Below, piece after piece: positions 5,332 to 37,416 of a DNA stretch of 64,000 nucleotides (its first letter is position 1; each line of letters opens with the position of its first letter). Source of the stretch: Alloascoidea hylecoeti (taxonomy: Eukaryota). The notes under the pieces are model-generated. The model was not told the DNA's origin, searched no databases, and worked only from the letters and a program-made list of their open reading frames with translations. The position numbers and the translations under genes were made by a program. The stretch lies in NCBI GenBank assembly GCA_001600815.1, contig BCKZ01000009.1, positions 336,194-400,193 of the forward strand, given 5' to 3'.

Positions 5332-7062
5332 CTATAAAGGCTTCCTGGCGTAAACAAATGTTGTATATTGACTAGGAGCATTGTCTCTCTGAACTCCATG
5401 GTGTTTCTTGCCTGTCTTCTCATCGATTGTTATCAAAGAATTCTTCAGGCAATAGTTACGGAAACGTTGAATGGCATCAGGATCGGTTAAAAAAGATTCG
5501 CCATATAAATTTACTAGCTGTAACCAATAAAACTGAATCATAAAATCGGTCACATAGCTTGCTGTTCCACCGGCATTAGAAGCCCTTGGAAGAACAATAA
5601 CTGTCTTGTTAATATTTGTGAAACCAGCGTCACCTAAATGTTTAACGATCTTTTTAGAAGGGTATGGATCCATTTTTCGAGGTTTGAGTCCTTTATTTAA
5701 AATTAATTCTATCCATGGTTTATCATCCTCATCAGGATTTATCACTTCAAAGTCAGAAACTAACAATTCAATATATCCACCCGGTTTTAGAATCCTATAT
5801 ATCTCTGAAATAACAGTAGGCCAATCTAGTTCTCTCAGTAGATACCAAAAGGCCCGAGAAGTCACTGAATCAAAGAAGTTGTTTTTGAATGGCAAACTTA
5901 AAAAGGATTTTCCTGTGGCAGGAACGAAATTAGAAGGACCACCACCAAAATCATAGGATGATAATTCATATCCATAAACCACTGTATCTGGGTAACTCAA
6001 AGCCAATTGCCAACTCAGCGGACTTCTTAAAACACCTTCTATTTCTAAAAGAATGATCTTTTTTGATGGCAAGCCTCTTTTTATATTTTCCCTATTATTA
6101 TGAATAATTTCCCTCATCTCTGGATTCATAATTATCTCGCCTTTTTGGAGAAAAAGTAATGCCATAATTGCCCATAGAGACATAATACCTGTGTCCATTC
6201 CTGGCTTGTATGTTCTTACAAATTGTAACCAAGCTTCTCGTCTTGTTTTGGCATATACCAAAGCATCCGTAGGCTGGCTCTTCTTCCAAAATTCATAATA
6301 GCTTTTCCATCTACTTTTATAAGATTGATTTCTTTTATTTAGAGATTTTAATGCATCTTGTCCATGGGCATCACGATCGGATTCCTGCTGAATTTTGGTC
6401 TTAGACAGTGACCTGGAGATATATGAAGAATCGCGATTTGCATACTCATATGGATTAAAGATTTCTGAACCAGATATAGATGATGCAGAAGATTGAGGTG
6501 TGCTGGAATCACTACTTCCGGTTGATATGGTTGCATTGTCATGAAATAACCCACCGGTATGATCAGTAGCTGATTTCGCGGAGGTGTGTCTCTTATTATA
6601 ATCATTGCTGTACTCACCTCTTAAATTATAAGAAGCGGACATAGAGCGCTGGGAAATAGATTTTCTTAATGATGTCTGAGAAGGGGTGCGTAAATGATTT
6701 CCAATCTTATAGCTATATTCATAATTGTCATCCTCCTCCTTAAAGTATATCGGACTTCTTTTTGGATGTACATTCGAGCCTGCATCGTCAGTAAAACATC
6801 TCAGTTTCTCCCCTACTCCCCCTGGGCCTGAAATCGTTGTCTGGGATTTAAAAAAAGGTGTGGCTGGAGTAAACGGGTAAATGGTGATATCCGAGTTGTT
6901 TGAATGTATAGAGGCTGAACTACATGAAGAAGGACTTTCCGGTGGGTTGGTTAAAGGTGAGACTTCAGCAGCGCTCTTAAGGTATTTAATGTCATTATAG
7001 TTGGCTATAGCCGTTGGGATTTTCTTTGGTTGTATCTGTGTTTCCAGTTGTTGGACATTCAT
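5332..7062 (-). CDS. Protein with a Ser-rich disordered N-terminus and a C-terminal class I SAM-methyltransferase-like domain
   Basis: 576-aa ORF; LPFKNNFFDSV and EIYRILKPGGYIE match class I MTase motifs II/III; motif I region is degenerate (LLEIEG). Confidence 0.75.
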   Translation of the reverse strand: MNVQQLETQIQPKKIPTAIANYNDIKYLKSAAEVSPLTNPPESPSSCSSASIHSNNSDITIYPFTPATPFFKSQTTISGPGGVGEKLRCFTDDAGSNVHPKRSPIYFKEEDDNYEYSYKIGNHLRTPSQTSLRKSISQRSMSASYNLRGEYSNDYNKRHTSAKSATDHTGGLFHDNATISTGSSDSSTPQSSASSISGSEIFNPYEYANRDSSYISRSLSKTKIQQESDRDAHGQDALKSLNKRNQSYKSRWKSYYEFWKKSQPTDALVYAKTRREAWLQFVRTYKPGMDTGIMSLWAIMALLFLQKGEIIMNPEMREIIHNNRENIKRGLPSKKIILLEIEGVLRSPLSWQLALSYPDTVVYGYELSSYDFGGGPSNFVPATGKSFLSLPFKNNFFDSVTSRAFWYLLRELDWPTVISEIYRILKPGGYIELLVSDFEVINPDEDDKPWIELILNKGLKPRKMDPYPSKKIVKHLGDAGFTNINKTVIVLPRASNAGGTASYVTDFMIQFYWLQLVNLYGESFLTDPDAIQRFRNYCLKNSLITIDEKTGKKHHGVQRDNAPSQYTTFVYARKPL

Positions 7063-27158: not shown

Positions 27159-30080
27159 ATGGCTACGGTTAATGGGGTTTTAGATCCTCAACCTTTAGAC
27201 TATCATCGGAAAGATATTCCAAATTCAGAAGAACTCACCCATGTTCGGCCCAAAAAGAGACGGATTGTACCGAACGAAAAAAGAAAGCGTGTGGCAAGGG
27301 CTTGCGACACCTGCAAACGGAGGAAACAAAAGGTATTGTACACATTTATTTTGTCTTTGGTTGTGTGCTGTTTACAATGGACTAACGATTTCTTGGGATT
27401 ATACTTTGCTTAGTGCGATGGTAAAAACCCTTGTTTTATTTGTGCCAGTAAAGGATTTGATTGTCAATACTCGGGCTTCGACAAAAGACTAAGTGTTCAC
27501 AGTTATGATATTTCACCTACTTCTACTGGAAATTCTCTCTCTCGCAGATCTTCCCTGGGAATGGGTGTCAGTCCACCAAAACGAGGACAGCAAATAATTC
27601 CTGATCAAAAAAGTGTAGGCTCATCTGTGAATCAACAACCTTTAATCCCCAATATTCCAAGAGCTAGGATGGGGTCAGAAGATCAGCAGAAATTTTTGCG
27701 CCAAGATTCCTCTATGTCCCCTGCGGATACAAGTGTAAGCTCCCGGTCCTCGCGATCTATCTCGACAGTTCATCATGATACTTCATATATTCCCCCTTCC
27801 TTACAACCTCTACTCTCTTTTCCCGTAGAAGCCCCTACACTACCGTCGATCAACAGCCCATCAACTGAAAACGCAAGCAAAGATTTTGTGGGAAATGTCG
27901 AAGAAGGTGGGAGAAATTCTAGACTCCTATATGATAAGTCAGGTCATTTAAGATACCTCGGTGAGAGCAGTGCTTTATCGTTGTTGGCTCAATCTAGGAA
28001 GGTTTTCCTTGCCAAAAATGGGCAATCCGCATTCACACAAGATCCACAGCGTTTTCATATTGTAGATTCTCCTGGTTACGTCAGTACAGGTTGGAAAAAT
28101 AGTCAATTACCTGCGAAAGAAATTGCTTTTTTATTTATCCAGCAGTTTGAAGAACATGTTAATGGTGCCGTTTACGTTTTTGATATGGATGATTTTAGAG
28201 ATGAAATTCAAGAAGTTTACCGTAACCCTTTGAAAGCTTCTCCTAAGACTATCTGTCTGTTAAATCTGGTAATGTCAATAGGTTCTATATTTTTATTAGC
28301 TGCACACCAACAAGATACTTTACACTTACCACTAAAAGATGTTTATTTATGTAACTTTATTTTAAGCAAGATAGAAGTTTTCCCACGAATCTTCTTTGCA
28401 AATGGTTTACATTTGCTAACTGATTCTAGTGAGGATGGTGAGTTATGGATTGTTCAAGCATATTTACTGGTTTTCTTATTCTATCAAATTAGTTGTCAAC
28501 GAAATGCATCTTGGATACATCTTGGTGTTTCCATCAGGCACGCTCAAGCTCTCGGTCTTAATAGAAAATATGTTAATTTAACGTTTAACAAACGCGATTG
28601 TTCCCATAGAAGAAAAATATGGAGATCTCTTTATTTTAATGATAGAATATGCTCCTCATATATGGGTAGACCCATTACAATCGATGACCGCGATTGGGAT
28701 GATATGCCTGATTATCCGAACTTTTCAGAAGAAAGTAGTTCAGTTCAATATCAAACGGTTAAAGTAACAGAAATACTTGGTGAGATTTTACACCGTGTTT
28801 ATACAAGTGAGAAAATAGGAACTTTAGAGGCTAAGAATCTCGCCTCGAAATTGAAAAGTTGGACAGTGAATCTTCCTGAAAATTTACAAGCTGGAATAAT
28901 ATTCCAAACCTCTCAATCCTCAATACATTCAACGACATCACCTACCTCTGGAAGTGCGCAGCCTTATAATGTAATCTCATTGAAAGAGAAACAATCATTA
29001 TTAGTTCTACATCTAACTCATTTACACACTGTTTTATTATTGTGTCGTCCTTTTTTCTTTCATGTGATCTCCCAGAGGAAAAATAGTAGCCAAGTTCCGG
29101 AGAAGCCCGAGATACTAGAATCATTCGATGAATATATGAAAGCATGTATTCAGTCATCCCTTCTCTCAAATCGGTTGGTCGAGGTCTTCTTTTTGAAAAA
29201 TGAACAGCCAATACGAGATCATGCTATTATATATTTTATTTTCAATGCCGGCTTAATCTTAGGTCTACAAGTTTTAAATCAAATTTACTATGGATTCGGA
29301 TCGAACTGTCATTTACTAGTTTATTCAATAAAAAGTTCAATTCTTATCCTTCAAAAATATGGAAAAATAGATCCTACCGCCGAGCGATACCATAAGATTA
29401 TAGTTAACGTGTATGAGGCGTTAGATAAAGATGGGCTTATTACTACACTCTCTAATGAAATGGCATTTGTAAATTTTAATGATCTTGTTCAAAACTCAAA
29501 TTATCAGGATGGTTTATTACTTACTGTTTCTAATGTTGAAAATGAAATTACAGCAGGATATTCTAATCCGACAGTAGACGCACCATTGTCCTTTACACCA
29601 TCAAATTCAATTCTCAATCCAAATTCAGTTCCAACACCAAATAATGCCACCAATGGCTCTAATTCTTTTGTTCCAACTGATGCTGCTGATATTCACACGT
29701 TGACAGGAAGTAACAATATGAATGGCTCTAATAAATTACCCATGTCCCAACAATCTTCAATGAATAATATATCATCATTGCTGGAGTTTGATCAATGGCT
29801 GTTTCCATCATTTGAATATGATATGGATTATAGCAAGGGAGGAATCCTAACACCAGAGCAGGGTGATGTAGGATATGCGGATGATTCAATTCAACAAAAT
29901 AATAATGACGGCTCAGCAATGAATCCAGAAGAAATTTCGAGAAATGTGGTCAGTTCAAATAAGGAAAGGGGATCTAATATATCTGGGGGAGTTGTTCAAG
30001 TAAAAAGTTCTGGCTTCACCAATGAATTCTTACATTCAGAAAACCCACGGCAAGGGTTATTGATCGATAAAGGATATTGA
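27159..30080 (+). CDS. Zn(II)2Cys6 fungal transcription factor with middle homology (Fungal_trans) domain; 2 exons (27159-27332, 27414-30080)
   Basis: ACDTCKRRKQK|CDGKNPCFICASKGFDC completed by intron 27333-27413 (GTATTG..ACTAAC..TAG); YLGESSA and AQALGLN..RRKIWRSLY..DRICSSYMGRP motifs. Confidence 0.93.
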
Positions 30081-30621
30081 AAATTAACTATTATATATAA
30101 GCCATTTGCGCATAGGACAATACCAAAAAATAAAAGAACTAATAAACTCTGTTTTTATGATTCACCTTTTATGCATGGTTAATGTGTAAATTGATTGTTT
30201 TTTATAGCGAAAATTTTCTCGTACCTTAGACTTATTTTTATTATATATACCCTGAAGACTCTCCTTAGTTAATATGTATCTGTATATTCAAAAAATGAGT
30301 GATAACCAACCGTTCTATAGCACTTATAATTGTCATAATATCTGCTGTTTTATGATAGATCTAAATATAAGTTTATAACATCTCATATATGATAGCTTTA
30401 AATTTAGGTATAACATAGTAGATGTGAATAAAATATGTTTCAAATTTTAAAAAAGAAAGAAAAGAAAGATAACAAATTAATATAAAAATTATATCTTAAT
30501 AAACCGTATAAAACCTTATATATATTAGCTAAATGCCAGCTGCAGCCCAAATTGAAAGTGTTATAAAAATATAACTATATAATAATGTATTTACCATATA
30601 GTTAATTATAGAATATCCAAA

Positions 30622-32376
30622 TTAGTAACAATCTTCAACAGCAAACCATTTGGGTGGATCAAAGCCATTTGGCCTGCTTGAGTAATGAAACTCGTTAGCA
30701 AAGATATTTGATTCGACAACAGGTTTCAACACTTTGATCATTCCTCCAAAACCTTTGCTATATGATGATTGAAGGTACTTCTCTGATTCAAATAACGAGG
30801 GATTTAACTTTTTCATTGATTTAAGTGTAGTAGAAGATATCTTGTCAACAGAATCATAATACCTCAGTTTAAAGATTTCTGGACACTGTTTTGATAGTAT
30901 TTGACTCCATAGTTCTTCAGAATAACATCCTTGCTGTAATAGTAGTAGGTCATATTGCACTAATGATGTTGTTGTCCAGTAACTTCCACCATATTTAGCT
31001 CGCTTATATATTGCAACCAGAGCAGATATGGCTCCCATACATCCTGTTCCATAATCGGACATTGGAAAAGGTGGCACCATTGGTTCTCTTGCCCCTAACT
31101 TCATGCCTTGGAGCCACGCGACACCAGAAACACAGTCGGCAATCTGTTGCCAACCAGCTCTGTTTTTCCACTCACCCTTGAAACCAAAACAGTTTTCAGA
31201 AACATAGATATAGCCTTTATTACGCTTTTCAGCTAAGTGCGCTAATTTTTCTGGACCGTATCCTAAATTCGTAATGGCATTTGTTCTATAACCATCAACA
31301 ATAACATCTGCATCTGCCAATAATTCCTCGAATTTAATTCTATCCTTTGGATTTTTTAAATTTAGATCACAGCAATGTTTTCCCATGTTACAATCAATTT
31401 GAAAAAATGGGACATCTGGAAGTGAACTAGAGCATGTAACTTTTAAAACTTCAGCTCCATATTCAGCCAAAATTCTAGATATAGTAGGACCTGCAATAAT
31501 TCTGCATAACTCTAAAACTTTAATACCTTTCAATATTTGAGGTTTTGAACTTTTTGAAGATTTACTAAAGGTGTTCTCGGGATATGGAACTGGTGGTGTA
31601 ATTTTTTCTAATGTCTCAATATTCCAATAAGGCTCCTTAGAAATTATTTTTCCGTGACTTGTTTTTAGAAATGCTTTGGCTGTCAAAGCCTGGCAACCAG
31701 CTTGTCTATTTTTTAGATTTAATTCCTCAAGCTCACTTGCATTATATCTGGAAACAGCACCTTGTATAGTCATGACCACTTTGTTATAATCACCTTTTAA
31801 TTCCGGTTTGAATGGGGGAAGACCGATCATCTTCAAAGTTGTTGTGGCTTCAAGTGATCCGTGAATATGATAATAATGACCATCTCTAGTTTTATAAAGA
31901 TTAGCACTCATTCTTCTATATTGATCAGACTGGGCTTTATTAATATCAGTAGGCTTTACGCGGTGGACGATCCCTTTACTATATTTTCCAAGTCCATCAA
32001 TTGAGGATAAGTAGGTCATAAATAGAAACATCAAGGCATTCTGAACGTCTACCGATAGTTTGATTGTACCGGAAGAATTGAAACCTCCATTGATATCAGG
32101 ATCATAGTTATAAGTTGAAATAACACGGTTACCATATCTTTCTTGACAAATTAGAGCAGCAATACAAGCTTCAACACCTTTCAAGGCAGATATTGTCTCA
32201 ATTTGCTTTAAAGGACAAGGAAGAATATGTTCATAGTTTGATGGATTAGAAAAGGACACAGACCGAGCAAACTTTTTTGCACTTTTTGGTAGAGGGCACC
32301 TTTTGCTATTTAGCAGAGACTCAAAGAGCCTTTTAGTCTCTAAAGGAATATCATATTGGATGGACTGAATGGTCAT
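30622..32376 (-). CDS. CoA-transferase family III (CaiB/BaiF), fungal long form
   Basis: LKGIKVLELCRIIAGPTISRILAEYGAEVLKV, NMGK..LNLK, ADVIVDGYR..LGYG, and the catalytic-Asp region PMSDYGTG..AL.AI.KR..GGS..SL; intronless 584 aa. Confidence 0.92.
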   Translation of the reverse strand: MTIQSIQYDIPLETKRLFESLLNSKRCPLPKSAKKFARSVSFSNPSNYEHILPCPLKQIETISALKGVEACIAALICQERYGNRVISTYNYDPDINGGFNSSGTIKLSVDVQNALMFLFMTYLSSIDGLGKYSKGIVHRVKPTDINKAQSDQYRRMSANLYKTRDGHYYHIHGSLEATTTLKMIGLPPFKPELKGDYNKVVMTIQGAVSRYNASELEELNLKNRQAGCQALTAKAFLKTSHGKIISKEPYWNIETLEKITPPVPYPENTFSKSSKSSKPQILKGIKVLELCRIIAGPTISRILAEYGAEVLKVTCSSSLPDVPFFQIDCNMGKHCCDLNLKNPKDRIKFEELLADADVIVDGYRTNAITNLGYGPEKLAHLAEKRNKGYIYVSENCFGFKGEWKNRAGWQQIADCVSGVAWLQGMKLGAREPMVPPFPMSDYGTGCMGAISALVAIYKRAKYGGSYWTTTSLVQYDLLLLQQGCYSEELWSQILSKQCPEIFKLRYYDSVDKISSTTLKSMKKLNPSLFESEKYLQSSYSKGFGGMIKVLKPVVESNIFANEFHYSSRPNGFDPPKWFAVEDCY

Positions 32377-32826
32377 TGTAATTGAAATTGTATGTAAGTT
32401 TAAATTTGAAGATATGAATGGGTTTCTTTTGAATTTATTTACCTAGATAGGAGCAGCATGTGCCTTTATATAATATTGATCTTATATATATAATTCTGTT
32501 AACGTTTCTAAATATAAGATAAATAATATTAATTATAAGGTACATTTCTAGACAAAGTAGTTACAGCAAATTCCAAAGGTGATGTCCAGTTAATTTCTAA
32601 TGAGTTTACGAGGCGACTTAAATAATTATGTTAAATACAGTATATTAAAAGGTGGTTTCTATTGCAAATTGTTTTACAACGGTGAATAGCATCATGATCA
32701 TGTAGATATTGTATGCATATATTGTCATTGAAGCACAACGGGTATCTGAACATGCACATAACGGTACCTGTTCCTCAAACGGCAAATAGACCTTATTATT
32801 CGAATTTACGGCTTGCATCATAGCAT

Positions 32827-32889
32827 ATCCGACGGAAACATGGATTCAATTATTCGGATAGTTGTTTATGCACCATATAACCGTCGGAT
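32827..32889. promoter_or_regulatory. Inverted pair of CCG-N-CGG elements in the divergent CoA-transferase/dioxygenase promoter; candidate Zn2Cys6 sites
   Basis: ATCCGACGG (32827-32835) and its exact reverse complement CCGTCGGAT (32881-32889), with an extra TCGGAT between them. Confidence 0.45.
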
Positions 32890-33264
32890 CACAGTTTTAT
32901 TCTTCTGTACCCCACGGTAAACTGTTTCTATTTTACAAGTTTCTCCTCTTGTATATATTATTATTTCATTACGTGTGGACATTGTACAACCATCATCTCT
33001 TAACTTCACCACTTTTTTTAGTTATGTATTTTTTATTTCTGATGCTCGAAAATCATATGAGCAGCCCCCACATACGAACCGTAGATGCCTAAAAAAGAAC
33101 CAATCAGTATCCTTCCTTTAAATAATGCTGATCGTAGCTTAGACACACTGAACCACTACTGGTAACTTCACTGGATTGTTTCAGAAAAATAGCAAAACTA
33201 AAGTTTACTTGAAGATTTAAGTTCAAGTGATATATTTTTTGAGTATATAAAATATTATTAGACT

Positions 33265-34167
33265 ATGACCAAAGAATTTACGAACACAGTTATTAAAGCT
33301 ATAGGACCAGGTTCTGCTCCCAGAACTAGAAAGATCCTCACTTCTTTAGTACAGCATGTCCATGACTTTGCTAGAGAAAATTCAATCACCTTGGATGAAT
33401 GGGCTGTAGCAATGGATTTCATTAACCGTATTGGTAAACGAACTGATGAAACAAGGGATGAGGCGATTCTTGTTTCTGACGTGCTTGGTTTAGAAGCGCT
33501 GGTCGATTCTCAAACAAATCAAAGCGGAGCTAGAAATCAGACATCTTCTTCAATTATCGGTCCTTTTTACAGGAAAAATTCGCCGACATATTCGAATGGA
33601 GAATCTATCATTCAAAAAGATGTCGGGGGTGAGAAAACCCTTGTTACTGGCCGAATTACGAATATTGATGACAAGCCAATTGGTGGTGCAAAAATTGAAG
33701 TTTGGCAGTGTGCGCCTAATGGCCTTTATGAACAACAAGATCCAAATCAGCCCAATTTTAATTTAAGGGGTACTTTCTACACGGATCCCGCGGGATATTA
33801 TAGCTTGATTTGTTTGTGTCCTACGTCATATCCCATTCCTACAGATGGACCGGCTGGGGAGTTGCTTCGTATGATGGATCATCATCCAATGCGTCCCAGC
33901 CATATTCATTACAAAGTATCTTGCCCAAAATTTCATACTTTGATTACTCAGGTTTATGATTCTAGAGATGACTATATCTATGATGATCCTGTGTTTTCAG
34001 TAAAGCCTGACTGTGTTGTTGACTTTGTCCCTGCAAAAAAGGAACTATCAGAAAAAGGCATTTCATATGAATTAAACTATAATATTGTTCTAGCCACTGA
34101 ATATGCTGTTCAAAATTCTATCTCTAACAAATTTAGAAAAAATAATTCTCTTAAATCTTGGTTGTAA
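33265..34167 (+). CDS. Intradiol ring-cleavage dioxygenase, most like fungal catechol 1,2-dioxygenase
   Basis: N-terminal SLVQHVHDFARE..EW..A..F and SDVLGLEALVD; IIGPFYR; Fe(III) ligands in GLYEQQD, SYPIP and RPSHIH. Confidence 0.93.
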   Translation: MTKEFTNTVIKAIGPGSAPRTRKILTSLVQHVHDFARENSITLDEWAVAMDFINRIGKRTDETRDEAILVSDVLGLEALVDSQTNQSGARNQTSSSIIGPFYRKNSPTYSNGESIIQKDVGGEKTLVTGRITNIDDKPIGGAKIEVWQCAPNGLYEQQDPNQPNFNLRGTFYTDPAGYYSLICLCPTSYPIPTDGPAGELLRMMDHHPMRPSHIHYKVSCPKFHTLITQVYDSRDDYIYDDPVFSVKPDCVVDFVPAKKELSEKGISYELNYNIVLATEYAVQNSISNKFRKNNSLKSWL

Positions 34168-35081
34168 ATTCAAGCAAGTTAAACAATTCAGATGTTACTT
34201 TTTGGTTTAAATCGTGAATATTATATACAATAGAGAAACCCTTTGATGTCGAATCTGATGGAGTTTATCGTATTAGTTGCTGTCACCTTTTAAAAATCAA
34301 ATAAATATATATATATATATACATTATAATTTTCAATATTAGAGGCTTTATGGGTAATTGTAAAAACTAGTAATTCAAAGGTATTTAAATATTAATTAGA
34401 GCCATCCATACGATGATTCAAACACCATGAAGATCAACAATTTTAAGGAACATTAAGCAATCAAAAATTTGAAGTAATGAGATTATAACAACAAAGAACA
34501 ATTATGAATGGAAATTGAAAATTCATGACCATATAATGATTCAGATTTACTAAAAAGTACTAAATTTAAGCGCCACCAAATGGATCCGGAAATTATTATT
34601 ATTATTTTCTATTAACATCAGACACATTGAAGGAGAAAAGGAAAAGAAGCTACATAATAACCAACCGTTAAATTTGGGAATTGAATTTAAATCATATTTA
34701 CGTATATTCTACACAGTATAGGTCATCAATATATGTCTTGCGATCGTGTTAAAATATGCGCACACCCGTAATATTATAATATTCAACGTCAATGGAAATA
34801 TGGATAAATTCATATATCCGGATCAACAAACTAGTTGGGTTATGGAATTCAAGCCTTCAATAATTTCTCGCAGCAGTGGAGGATTTGTTTATTGTTCAAT
34901 GCTCACCATCTTCCGAAACTTACATTGCTATAGCTTTAGTGCATCTACCACACGTGAATTTTTTTAATTACTATTTTAATACATTTTATTCTTTTTCTAT
35001 TAAAGCTTGAGTGAAATTTGTTTTCAGTTCGGAAATATTTAGTATAGCGGTATAACTTATAAGTTATAACAGAAAACTATC

Positions 35082-35552
35082 ATGTGCATTATACAACAGA
35101 AAATCTGGAAACTTACAGAAAATAGTCAGCTGAATTCCTGGTTAGAACGGTTTTATAAAGCAAGTGATACGCCTCCACCATCTCCTCCAGTTGCAGACCC
35201 ATATATCTCTTATTATACTACATCAGCAGTTTTAAAGATGGGCTCGACCGAAGCAAACAATCATGCTGAGATCGGCTCACTCAGACAAAAAATGTGGTCG
35301 AAAATAGAGAAAAGGCATCATGTGGTGCACAAAGTCTTCTTTTTATCCAACCCAGTAACAGATGAATTACCGGAGAACAAGAAAACCAATATATATCTTG
35401 AAGGCACTGTTGAATATGCGCTGTTTGATGGTAAAAGTACAACCATCGAATGGGCCGGTCGTATGCAATTCAACGGAGAACAAATGGGTAATGATAAGAT
35501 AGAATTGTATAAGGTTTATATTGATTCTACTTCAAGAGATCTATGGTTATAA
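35082..35552 (+). CDS. Fungal SnoaL/NTF2-like domain protein
   Basis: 156 aa; FYKASD.P, LRQKMW..R.H, GTVEY..DG..EWAGR and YKVYID pattern typical of small fungal SnoaL-like proteins. Confidence 0.7.
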   Translation: MCIIQQKIWKLTENSQLNSWLERFYKASDTPPPSPPVADPYISYYTTSAVLKMGSTEANNHAEIGSLRQKMWSKIEKRHHVVHKVFFLSNPVTDELPENKKTNIYLEGTVEYALFDGKSTTIEWAGRMQFNGEQMGNDKIELYKVYIDSTSRDLWL

Positions 35553-35976: not shown

Positions 35977-36756
35977 CTAAAAGATAGAAGAAAAAACTTC
36001 TGACACTTTTGACCACAAAGATCCAGTACAATATTCTTTAATCTTAGAATAAGTATCATCCATATGCTCTTTCATATAAGACTCATTTTCTGGAAAATGT
36101 TTCATTTTATGTTCAACCTTTGACAATTTTCTAAAGACTTTATTGATTTTCTTTTCAAGTTTCTTCTCTTTCCTTTCGAACCCCTTCAAAGCTTTCTTAG
36201 TTGGATTTTCCAAATGACCAAATGACTTAAGAAGTTCCTCCTTTTCAGAAACTTTCTCCTCTAAATATGACTTAAGGCTTTCAAATTTATTCTTTAACTC
36301 GTCAAATGATTCATCCTGATCATGGTGGTTGCCGTGGCCACAACCTTTGCCTGTGTGCATATCATTATGATCTGATTTTGATACATCTGAAAATTGCTCA
36401 TGTTCTTCTTGGTGCTCTTCTGGGATTGCAGTAATAGGTACAACCGGCTCAATGGGTAAAGCATTAACAGTTCCATCATTATTTTCCCATCCTTCACCTA
36501 AAATCCTATCGGCACTAAATTCGGGAAGTTTTTCATTCTGAGAATCAATAACAGCTGTAACTATAGAATAACCCCATACCAAGACCCATACCAAGACGAG
36601 GGCAAGTCCGATTCTGCATCTTTTTGATTTGGTGGCGGATTTAGCGGGAGCCTCTGCTGGAAGAACAACATCAGCGGCTGCCTCATTTTCAATGTCCTTC
36701 ATAAAAGGGACCTTCTCTTCCAAAATGGTAGTGTCTTTATTAACGTTATCAGTCAT
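35977..36756 (-). CDS. Hypothetical type II single-pass membrane protein with His-rich and coiled-coil C-terminal part
   Basis: Long ORF (extends to 36867); likely start MTDNVNK at 36756 (AAAATG context); TM helix IGLALVLVWVLVWGYSIVTAVI after a basic KSKRCR patch. Confidence 0.7.
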   Translation of the reverse strand: MTDNVNKDTTILEEKVPFMKDIENEAAADVVLPAEAPAKSATKSKRCRIGLALVLVWVLVWGYSIVTAVIDSQNEKLPEFSADRILGEGWENNDGTVNALPIEPVVPITAIPEEHQEEHEQFSDVSKSDHNDMHTGKGCGHGNHHDQDESFDELKNKFESLKSYLEEKVSEKEELLKSFGHLENPTKKALKGFERKEKKLEKKINKVFRKLSKVEHKMKHFPENESYMKEHMDDTYSKIKEYCTGSLWSKVSEVFSSIF

Positions 36757-37416
36757 TTTCGTTGATAAGTATGATGTGGGAAAAGAGAAAAGTGAGATGC
36801 TATCTCTAACCTTGTTTTGAAACCTGGTCTGGAAACTTCTACCATGTGATGGGATATACATCAGCACGTGACATACTTAACTAATATTGTATCATGATTT
36901 TGGAGCAACATCCGTTCAAATTAGGCGAATTAAGGGTGTATAGGAGATACAGATGAAAAGCCCTGCAGTAAATATAAAAGAAGAAGATAGCAAGGGACCT
37001 CGTTATGAATATCTAAGAATATGGCAAATATTGATTTTTTTTTCAACGTTAAGATACAATTCATACTTATGCTGAAGTTATGCATAATACAACTAGTGTT
37101 GCGCCTAAATCTCTACACAAAAGTATGACGGTCATATGCATTATTTGTTGCCATTTCTTCGACTTTATTGAAATTTCAGATAACTTTTAAAATTCCTCTT
37201 TGTGAAATTAAGTAAACCCCAACGTTCATGAATCGTGACGTATATATCTCATGTATAGCCGTTTTTTTTTGCACTTAGTTCTGCAGGTCAATCAATTGCA
37301 AGCGTATTCTAGTAGATCTCAGGATTAAATAATAATAAAGATCTCCTAGAACAAACAAAAAAAAAGAGCTGAACTTGTGATCAAAAACATAATTTCTTTT
37401 TTCCCTTTATTTGAAC

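What the first reader, a model, noticed from the sequence alone, without database searches (positions are those of the whole stretch)
27159..35552. Putative aromatic-catabolism gene cluster: Zn2Cys6 TF + family III CoA-transferase <> catechol-type dioxygenase + SnoaL-like protein
Seen: four adjacent non-housekeeping genes sit among core genes, preceded by a ~4-kb gene-free tract. The CoA-transferase and intradiol dioxygenase are divergent from one 888-bp promoter, and the three non-regulatory genes are intronless. Established: intradiol dioxygenases open catechol rings in the beta-ketoadipate pathway, whose CoA step normally uses a family I transferase; family III enzymes activate diacids and aryl acids. 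Inference: a self-regulated module that activates an aromatic acid or a (substituted) muconate/diacid product through a non-canonical CoA route. I do not know a characterised yeast pathway with this gene combination.
Basis: partly seen in the sequence, partly recalled or inferred. Interest (0 to 1): 0.72.

Follow-up and report, generated by a model that had tools for sequence, protein, structure and literature searches.

The report
Yeast catechol-breakdown gene cluster
These four neighbouring genes are a reshuffled copy of a known yeast gene cluster for breaking down the aromatic compound catechol, and the main open question is how one enzyme, which looks like a coenzyme A transferase, closes the ring-opened product into a lactone.

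Summary
The four genes are real and at the stated coordinates. They match, one for one, four of the five genes of the published Candida catechol-branch cluster of the 3-oxoadipate pathway: ZCF25 (activator), MCI1 (muconate cycloisomerase), HQD2 (catechol 1,2-dioxygenase) and MLI1 (muconolactone isomerase). The fifth gene, OEL1, has a single orthologue on another contig. A family I 3-oxoacid CoA-transferase and three thiolases also lie elsewhere in the genome.

The family III 'CoA-transferase' is therefore not a stand-in for the 3-oxoadipate CoA step. It belongs to the family of Aspergillus nidulans AN3895, whose deletion accumulates cis,cis-muconate. The SnoaL-like protein belongs to the family of AN4061, whose deletion accumulates muconolactone. 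Both enzyme trees place the window genes inside the budding-yeast clade, so there is no sign of transfer from moulds.

Still open: the MCI1 family keeps the family III catalytic aspartate in 120 of 120 listed homologues, so the lactonisation may go through a CoA thioester. My literature searches found no in vitro test of this. I also found no enzyme in this genome that would make catechol. Verdict: a new member of a known kind, of modest interest.

The parts
27159..30080 (+). Zn2Cys6 transcription factor, Zcf25-like (exons 27159-27332 and 27414-30080; 946 aa)
   Evidence: Fungal_trans and partial Zn_clus; six-Cys motif after splicing; best match in this genome to the protein in the ZCF25 slot of Candida-type locus L005, E 1.4e-71 against 7e-17 for the next of 19 matches; 292 bits to the ZCF25-slot protein against 235 bits to the paralogue beyond MCI1
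30622..32376 (-). MCI1/AN3895-type protein of CoA-transferase family III (muconate cycloisomerase by published genetics); 584 aa; putative catalytic Asp441
   Evidence: CoA_transf_3; 55% identical over 571 aa to the MCI1-slot protein of L005; AN3895 primer peptides fit this family; model residues 277-579 align with family III structures at Z 24.3, rmsd 2.5, 261 aligned; the only CoA_transf_3 match in the genome
32377..33264 (.). 888-bp divergent promoter with two CCG-N-CGG sites (32829-32835 and 32881-32887) and 9 ACGG words
   Evidence: ACGG 9 observed against 2.5 expected in 300 dinucleotide shuffles, p 0.003; CCG-N-CGG found in none of the other 16 regions tested; motifs chosen after looking at the sequence
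33265..34167 (+). HQD2/CrcA-type catechol 1,2-dioxygenase; 300 aa; iron ligands Tyr155, Tyr189, His213, His215 and Arg210 present
   Evidence: Pfam; 52% identical to the HQD2-slot protein of L005; motif positions (ligand roles recalled from intradiol dioxygenases); the only Dioxygenase_C match in the genome
35082..35552 (+). MLI1/AN4061-type NTF2-fold protein (muconolactone isomerase by published genetics); 156 aa
   Evidence: 38% identical to the MLI1-slot protein of L005, E 6e-34 pairwise; hit P0278 (E 6e-20) is Cd36_42090, the listed orthologue of MLI1/C4_02200C; NTF2-like fold

Best explanation
[quoted passage not shown] The Zcf25-type factor switches on the cluster. The dioxygenase opens catechol to cis,cis-muconate. 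The family III protein (MCI1) turns muconate into muconolactone. The NTF2-fold protein (MLI1) shifts the double bond to give 3-oxoadipate enol-lactone. [quoted passage not shown] Shown here: orthology, linkage and intact motifs. Taken from papers on orthologues: the step assignments and the regulation. Inferred: that this species uses the genes in the same way.
For: The published cluster is HQD2-ZCF25-OEL1-MLI1-MCI1, C4_02230C to C4_02190C (PMC8311171 supplement). C4_02190C is labelled 'CoA-transferase family protein', and C4_02200C is the orthologue of Cd36_42090 (PMC12625712 supplement), which is hit P0278 of the window's small protein. Locus L005 has these five genes in the published order and strands, and each window protein matches its slot. 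Accession offsets fit too: dioxygenase to family III protein +4 in four C. tropicalis records, in C. viswanathii and in one of two S. stipitis series (+3 in the other), and the SnoaL protein at +3 in C. viswanathii. In A. nidulans, deleting AN3895, AN4061 or AN4531 accumulates muconate, muconolactone or the enol-lactone (review PMC12388069). Both AN3895 primer peptides match exactly, 40 aa apart, in 4 of the 120 listed homologues, and the window has the equivalent motifs at 356 and 396. Zcf25 is needed for growth on catechol and for induction of its own cluster (PMC12625712). Downstream genes are present: OEL1 orthologue at G000:C16:525120-525953 (42%, E 4.5e-37), a family I transferase over both TIGR02428 and TIGR02429 cut-offs, three thiolases. 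No beta-propeller lactonase was found that could do the muconate step instead (0 matches).
Against: There are no expression or growth data for this organism. I found no enzyme that would supply catechol: no phenol-hydroxylase domain, only COQ6 at E 1e-4 with a fungal phenol hydroxylase query, no salicylate-hydroxylase-like gene among the five of 7 FAD_binding_3 matches that I read, and one amidohydrolase that does not look like a 2,3-dihydroxybenzoate decarboxylase by my recall of the families. These genome searches give lower bounds. The best solved-structure matches of the dioxygenase are hydroxyquinol dioxygenases, and several yeast orthologues carry that automatic name. The window enzymes sit on long branches (0.50 and 0.48 against medians of 0.15 and 0.11). 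I could not read the primary papers behind the step assignments. The single family I transferase could serve acetoacetate rather than 3-oxoadipate.
Confidence: 0.9

Rival explanations
1. Same cluster, but drifted in this lineage to a substituted catechol or hydroxyquinol, or to detoxifying catechols from the environment rather than growing on phenols.
For: No catechol-making enzyme found; long terminal branches; the dioxygenase differs at 7 of 111 columns that are at least 90% conserved in 37 other homologues of the yeast clade, including R206H, S242P and A245S; A. niger CrcA also accepts hydroxyquinol and methylcatechols in vitro.
Against: The deviation counts lie inside the family range: 7 in a range of 0-13 for the dioxygenase, 10 in a range of 1-25 for MCI1. 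Long branches are expected when no close relative is sampled. MCI1, MLI1 and OEL1 are all kept, which the hydroxyquinol route would not need.
Confidence: 0.07
2. One reading: the family III enzyme activates an aromatic acid, or replaces the family I 3-oxoadipate CoA-transferase, in an uncharacterised pathway.
For: It has a family III fold and the catalytic Asp. I found no in vitro assay of MCI1/AN3895 in my searches.
Against: Deleting the A. nidulans family member accumulates muconate; a family I transferase exists in the genome; the gene set is the published cluster.
Confidence: 0.03

Closest known systems
Candida albicans catechol-branch (ZCF25) cluster: HQD2, ZCF25, OEL1, MLI1, MCI1
   Same: Four of the five genes are orthologous (29%, 55%, 52% and 38% identity to the TF, MCI1, HQD2 and MLI1 slots of L005); a regulator sits inside the cluster.
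   Different: Here the order is TF> <MCI1 HQD2> MLI1>, with MCI1 and HQD2 divergent; OEL1 is on another contig; no phenol hydroxylase was found in the genome; the TF has an intron.
Aspergillus nidulans catechol branch: AN4532, AN3895, AN4061, AN4531
   Same: Same enzyme families, as judged from primer-derived peptides and the IPR032710 label of AN4061; deletion phenotypes define the steps.
   Different: Judged by locus numbers, only AN4531 and AN4532 are neighbours there. I did not have the full AN3895 or AN4061 sequences.
Scedosporium catechol cluster SAPIO_CDS8717-8721
   Same: TF, catechol 1,2-dioxygenase and an adjacent muconate cycloisomerase (PMC8283699).
   Different: It adds a phenol monooxygenase and a transporter; the lactone isomerase and hydrolase are on another scaffold. 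Its sequences were not compared here.
CoA-transferase family III (Frc, CaiB, SUGCT, Mct, AMACR)
   Same: Residues 277-579 align structurally (Z 20-24); Asp441 aligns with the D of the 'D-x-x-T-G' motif.
   Different: It has an extra conserved N-terminal part of about 275 aa that these searches did not place; sequence identity is only 15-27%; all six NCBIfam family III models score far below their cut-offs; the motif R-x-G-W-Q-Q replaces R-x-G-Y-D.

Membership tests
Yeast catechol-branch (ZCF25) cluster | HQD2-type catechol 1,2-dioxygenase | tested here: met
   52% to the L005 HQD2 slot; in one clade with C. tropicalis and C. maltosa catechol dioxygenases; substrate not tested
Yeast catechol-branch (ZCF25) cluster | MCI1 gene (family III CoA-transferase-like) | tested here: met
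Yeast catechol-branch (ZCF25) cluster | MLI1 gene (NTF2/SnoaL-like) | tested here: met
Yeast catechol-branch (ZCF25) cluster | Zcf25-type Zn2Cys6 regulator in the cluster | tested here: met
   Best match in this genome by 54 orders of magnitude; closer to the ZCF25 slot than to the neighbouring paralogue; no tree was built
Yeast catechol-branch (ZCF25) cluster | OEL1 enol-lactone hydrolase inside the cluster | tested here: not met
   One orthologue, on contig C16 among unrelated genes; the gene is present but unlinked
Yeast catechol-branch (ZCF25) cluster | Induction by catechol that depends on the TF | not testable with these tools
   No RNA holder listed; shown for C. albicans in PMC12625712
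CoA-transferase family III | CaiB/Frc fold | tested here: met
   Model pLDDT 89.2; Z 24.3, rmsd 2.5, 261 aligned to 9zav_A
CoA-transferase family III | Catalytic aspartate | tested here: met
   Asp441; present in 120 of the 120 listed hits, out of 914 found; its role is recalled from Frc and CaiB Asp169
CoA-transferase family III | CoA-dependent catalysis | not testable with these tools
   Needs an enzyme assay
Cluster transferred from Pezizomycotina | Window genes nested among mould sequences | tested here: not met
   Nested in budding-yeast clades, support 1.0 (41 of 79 sequences) and 0.978 (40 of 81), with no labelled mould sequence inside

The most novel reading that the evidence does not exclude
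The ascomycete 'muconate cycloisomerase' (MCI1/AN3895 family, including this gene) works through a CoA thioester. It loads CoA on one carboxylate of cis,cis-muconate through Asp441; the thioester makes the neighbouring double bond a good acceptor for the other carboxylate, which closes the lactone; CoA then passes to the next muconate, so the net reaction looks like an isomerisation. This would be a third way to lactonise muconate, apart from the bacterial Mn-dependent enolase-superfamily enzyme and the beta-propeller enzyme (both recalled). The NTF2-fold MLI1 would likewise be an independent, ketosteroid-isomerase-like solution for the next step. The claim concerns the whole family, not only this genome.
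Probability: 0.5. Interest if true: 0.6.

Novelty: new member of a known kind. Interest (0 to 1): 0.27.

Why it matters
As a cluster it adds one more arrangement to a known pathway and shows the module is old in budding yeasts. The practical point is annotation: databases call the MCI1 family 'CoA-transferase family III', 'CAIB/BAIF', 'nodX' or 'alpha-methylacyl-CoA racemase', and leave MLI1 as 'SnoaL-like' or hypothetical, which hides the pathway. If the lactonisation needs CoA, the fungal route differs in chemistry from the bacterial one. It would also mark this gene as the one to delete when engineering a yeast to accumulate muconic acid.

Tried and rejected
Transfer from Pezizomycotina: rejected; the best hits are yeasts and the trees nest the window genes among yeasts (FastTree, 79 and 81 of the 120 listed hits each, rooted on an Aspergillus sequence, no topology test).

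Family III protein as the A. niger KstA equivalent: rejected; KstA is a family I, SCOT-like enzyme.

Word-indexed homologue search with the small protein returned only itself; the full HMMER search found 138 proteins.

Scan of prokaryote genomes with alignment A1: 94 pattern matches, none confirmed. The patterns were fungal, so this does not show absence in bacteria.

Test for an internal repeat between the N- and C-terminal halves of MCI1: probability 1.3%; the profile search of solved structures matched only the C-terminal part. The N-terminal 275 aa were not folded or searched on their own, so their origin is unresolved.

The CCG-N-CGG promoter motif was absent from the five intergenic regions of L005, from the two other divergent promoters (L052, L054), and from the regions upstream of this genome's OEL1 and family I transferase. 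It stays a weak lead.

No RNA holder listed. No earlier finding of this scan matched. No Rfam or tRNA match.

Literature: ten search calls, two rejected for characters and nine counted in all; some searches looked for a biochemical study of MCI1/AN3895 or a CoA-dependent lactonisation and listed none. The library lacks most subscription papers. Gerecova et al. 2015 and the A. niger salicylate paper were not held, and Martins et al. 2015 and 2019 were not read, so the point may already be in print.
Full report
Observation. The ORF list and sequence and Pfam confirm four genes. A Zn2Cys6 factor lies at 27159-30080 with one 81-nt intron that splits the zinc cluster (946 aa spliced). A CoA_transf_3 protein lies at 30622-32376 (-), an intradiol dioxygenase at 33265-34167 (+), and a 156-aa ORF at 35082-35552 (+) that the Atlas calls SnoaL-like (0.97) and whose model has an NTF2-like fold. 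The two enzyme genes face away from 888 bp. The flanks hold a CAP-Gly protein, a 294-aa ORF of no Pfam family, Kei1, an aconitase-family enzyme and a helicase. The dioxygenase and the family III protein are each the only match of their Pfam family in the 24.8-Mb genome (lower bounds). The upstream 4-kb tract is empty by ORF, Rfam and tRNA scans, but gaps of similar size occur elsewhere in the window.

Identification with a published cluster. A supplement of PMC8311171 lists the Candida albicans catechol-branch cluster as HQD2 (C4_02230C), ZCF25, OEL1, MLI1 (C4_02200C) and MCI1 (C4_02190C). A supplement of PMC12625712 labels C4_02190C 'CoA-transferase family protein' and gives Cd36_42090 as the orthologue of C4_02200C. 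Cd36_42090 is P0278, a hit of the window's small protein at E 6e-20. Metagenome locus L005 carries dioxygenase, TF, hydrolase, SnoaL-like and family III genes in the published order and strands; that it is Candida albicans itself is my inference and was not checked. The window proteins match those slots at 52% (dioxygenase), 55% (family III), 38% (SnoaL-like) and 29% (TF). Searching this genome with the ZCF25-slot protein returns the window TF at E 1.4e-71, with the next of 19 matches at 7e-17. The hydrolase slot (OEL1) has one match, on contig C16.

Step assignments. A review (PMC12388069, passages) states that deleting A. nidulans AN3895, AN4061 or AN4531 accumulates cis,cis-muconate, muconolactone or 3-oxoadipate enol-lactone on salicylate. 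I did not have those sequences, so I used published qPCR primers (PMC7842363 supplement). The AN3895 primers read ADVLV and CFGYEG. Both occur exactly, 40 residues apart, in 4 of the 120 listed homologues, three of them named Aspergillus proteins, and the window protein has the equivalent motifs at 356 and 396. AN4061 is labelled IPR032710 in that supplement (NTF2-like, recalled). Its primer peptides, translated by hand, occur in the small protein's family: the best of 137 representatives has MLYGTV and QVYLDPG 39 residues apart, the spacing of the weaker window matches at 105 and 144. Zcf25 is required for growth on catechol and for induction of its own cluster, OSC1 and POT1-2 (PMC12625712, passages). 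The real 3-oxoadipate CoA-transferase of A. niger, KstA, is family I (PMC10406623, passages), and this genome has one family I gene and three thiolases.

Conservation and origin. Locus tags put the dioxygenase next to the family III gene in Babjeviella (9731/9732), Candida arabinofermentans (29086/29087) and Magnusiomyces (6453/6454, with the SnoaL-like gene at 6455). Accession offsets of +4 fit the Candida order in C. tropicalis, C. viswanathii and S. stipitis. Against linkage: Sugiyamaella (1393 against 1116) and Ascoidea rubescens (contigs of different length). Of 80 metagenome loci centred on the family III gene, 13 hold the dioxygenase, 36 a TF match at E below 1e-10, 8 the SnoaL-like gene and 4 all three. 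Of the 23 loci with at least 7 kb on both sides the counts are 9, 22 and 5 (not de-duplicated, many loci are close kin, TF orthology not tree-tested). Trees of 79 family III and 81 dioxygenase sequences nest the window genes in clades with all named budding yeasts and no labelled mould sequence (support 1.0 and 0.978). The module looks ancestral and repeatedly reshuffled.

Mechanism. Shown: the C-terminal 300 residues have the family III fold, and Asp441 sits where solved family III enzymes have their catalytic aspartate and is kept in 120 of 120 listed homologues. Inferred: muconate lactonisation is an addition of one carboxylate across the double bond next to the other, and a CoA thioester at that second carboxylate would favour it, as thioesters do in the family III racemase. 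A catalytic CoA cycle would give a net isomerisation and fit the deletion phenotype. I put this at about even odds. The alternative is that the fold was recruited as a CoA-free acid-base catalyst. The small protein keeps invariant Asp29, Arg68, Trp72, Arg78 and Tyr143 in 40 aligned sequences. A double-bond shift in an NTF2 pocket would resemble ketosteroid isomerase, but the fold match is general (rows at Z 12-15) and shows no function.

Points against, and gaps. No catechol-making enzyme was found in this genome, so the inducer and feeder are unknown. The dioxygenase's closest solved structures are hydroxyquinol dioxygenases; the yeast HQD2 clade is not clearly named among those entries. The window enzymes have long terminal branches, but their departures from conserved columns are within the family range. 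The promoter holds two CCG-N-CGG sites and an excess of ACGG, of the kind Zn2Cys6 factors bind (recalled), but the motif was picked after inspection and is not seen in the other promoters checked. How this organism reads CUG was not determined; the four genes hold 12 CTG codons, none at the catalytic positions named here.

Papers. Passages only: PMC10406623, PMC12625712 (plus supplement rows), PMC7842363 (plus supplement rows; one supplement file was unreadable), PMC12388069, PMC8283699, PMC8311171 (plus supplement), PMC9204233, PMC12420386, PMC12366324, PMC8896014, PMC10832562. The last five added nothing decisive. Not held or not read: Gerecova et al. 2015, Martins et al. 2015 and 2019, and the A. 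niger salicylate paper (for two of them); they may already discuss the family III nature of MCI1.

Verdict. A real, ordinary cluster: a new arrangement of the known catechol-branch module, confidence 0.9, interest 0.27. The residual interest is the chemistry of the MCI1 family, for which my searches found no test.

Noticed in passing
window 35977-36861 (-): 294-aa ORF next to the cluster with no Pfam family: one hydrophobic stretch, then a His/Glu/Lys-rich region. Not part of the catechol module as far as tested.
   Followed up: no
G000 whole genome: No phenol hydroxylase, salicylate hydroxylase or 2,3-dihydroxybenzoate decarboxylase was found, although the catechol branch is complete; the source of catechol is unexplained.
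   Followed up: partly
G000:C16:525120-525953 (L097 4621-5454): Unlinked OEL1 orthologue; its conserved N-terminal part lies upstream of the first in-frame ATG, so a 5' intron is likely.
   Followed up: partly
P0165, P0174 and unlabelled neighbours: Bacterial catechol dioxygenases (Plasticicumulans, Sphingomonas; about 50% identical) fall among the fungal HQD2-type sequences near Pezizomycetes. The placing is weakly supported (0.76) and there is no outside root; a possible fungus-bacterium transfer.
   Followed up: no
L079 7042-19836: A fungal locus with phenol hydroxylase, MCI1-type gene, TF, SnoaL-like gene and dioxygenase together: a fuller form of the same cluster.
   Followed up: partly
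L052 and L054: Other fungal loci with the same divergent dioxygenase / family III arrangement, about 300 bp apart.
   Followed up: partly
G000:C5:111000-113200 (L099): A Zn2Cys6 factor divergent from an Amidohydro_2 gene; it resembles a rhamnonolactonase with its regulator (recalled, not tested).
   Followed up: no
G000:C3:155094-156068 and C14:244696-245643: Two squalene-epoxidase-like genes (label recalled from the sequences printed).
   Followed up: no
P0024: A Candida tropicalis MCI1-type sequence is also filed under 'Asgard group archaeon', probably a contaminated assembly.
   Followed up: no
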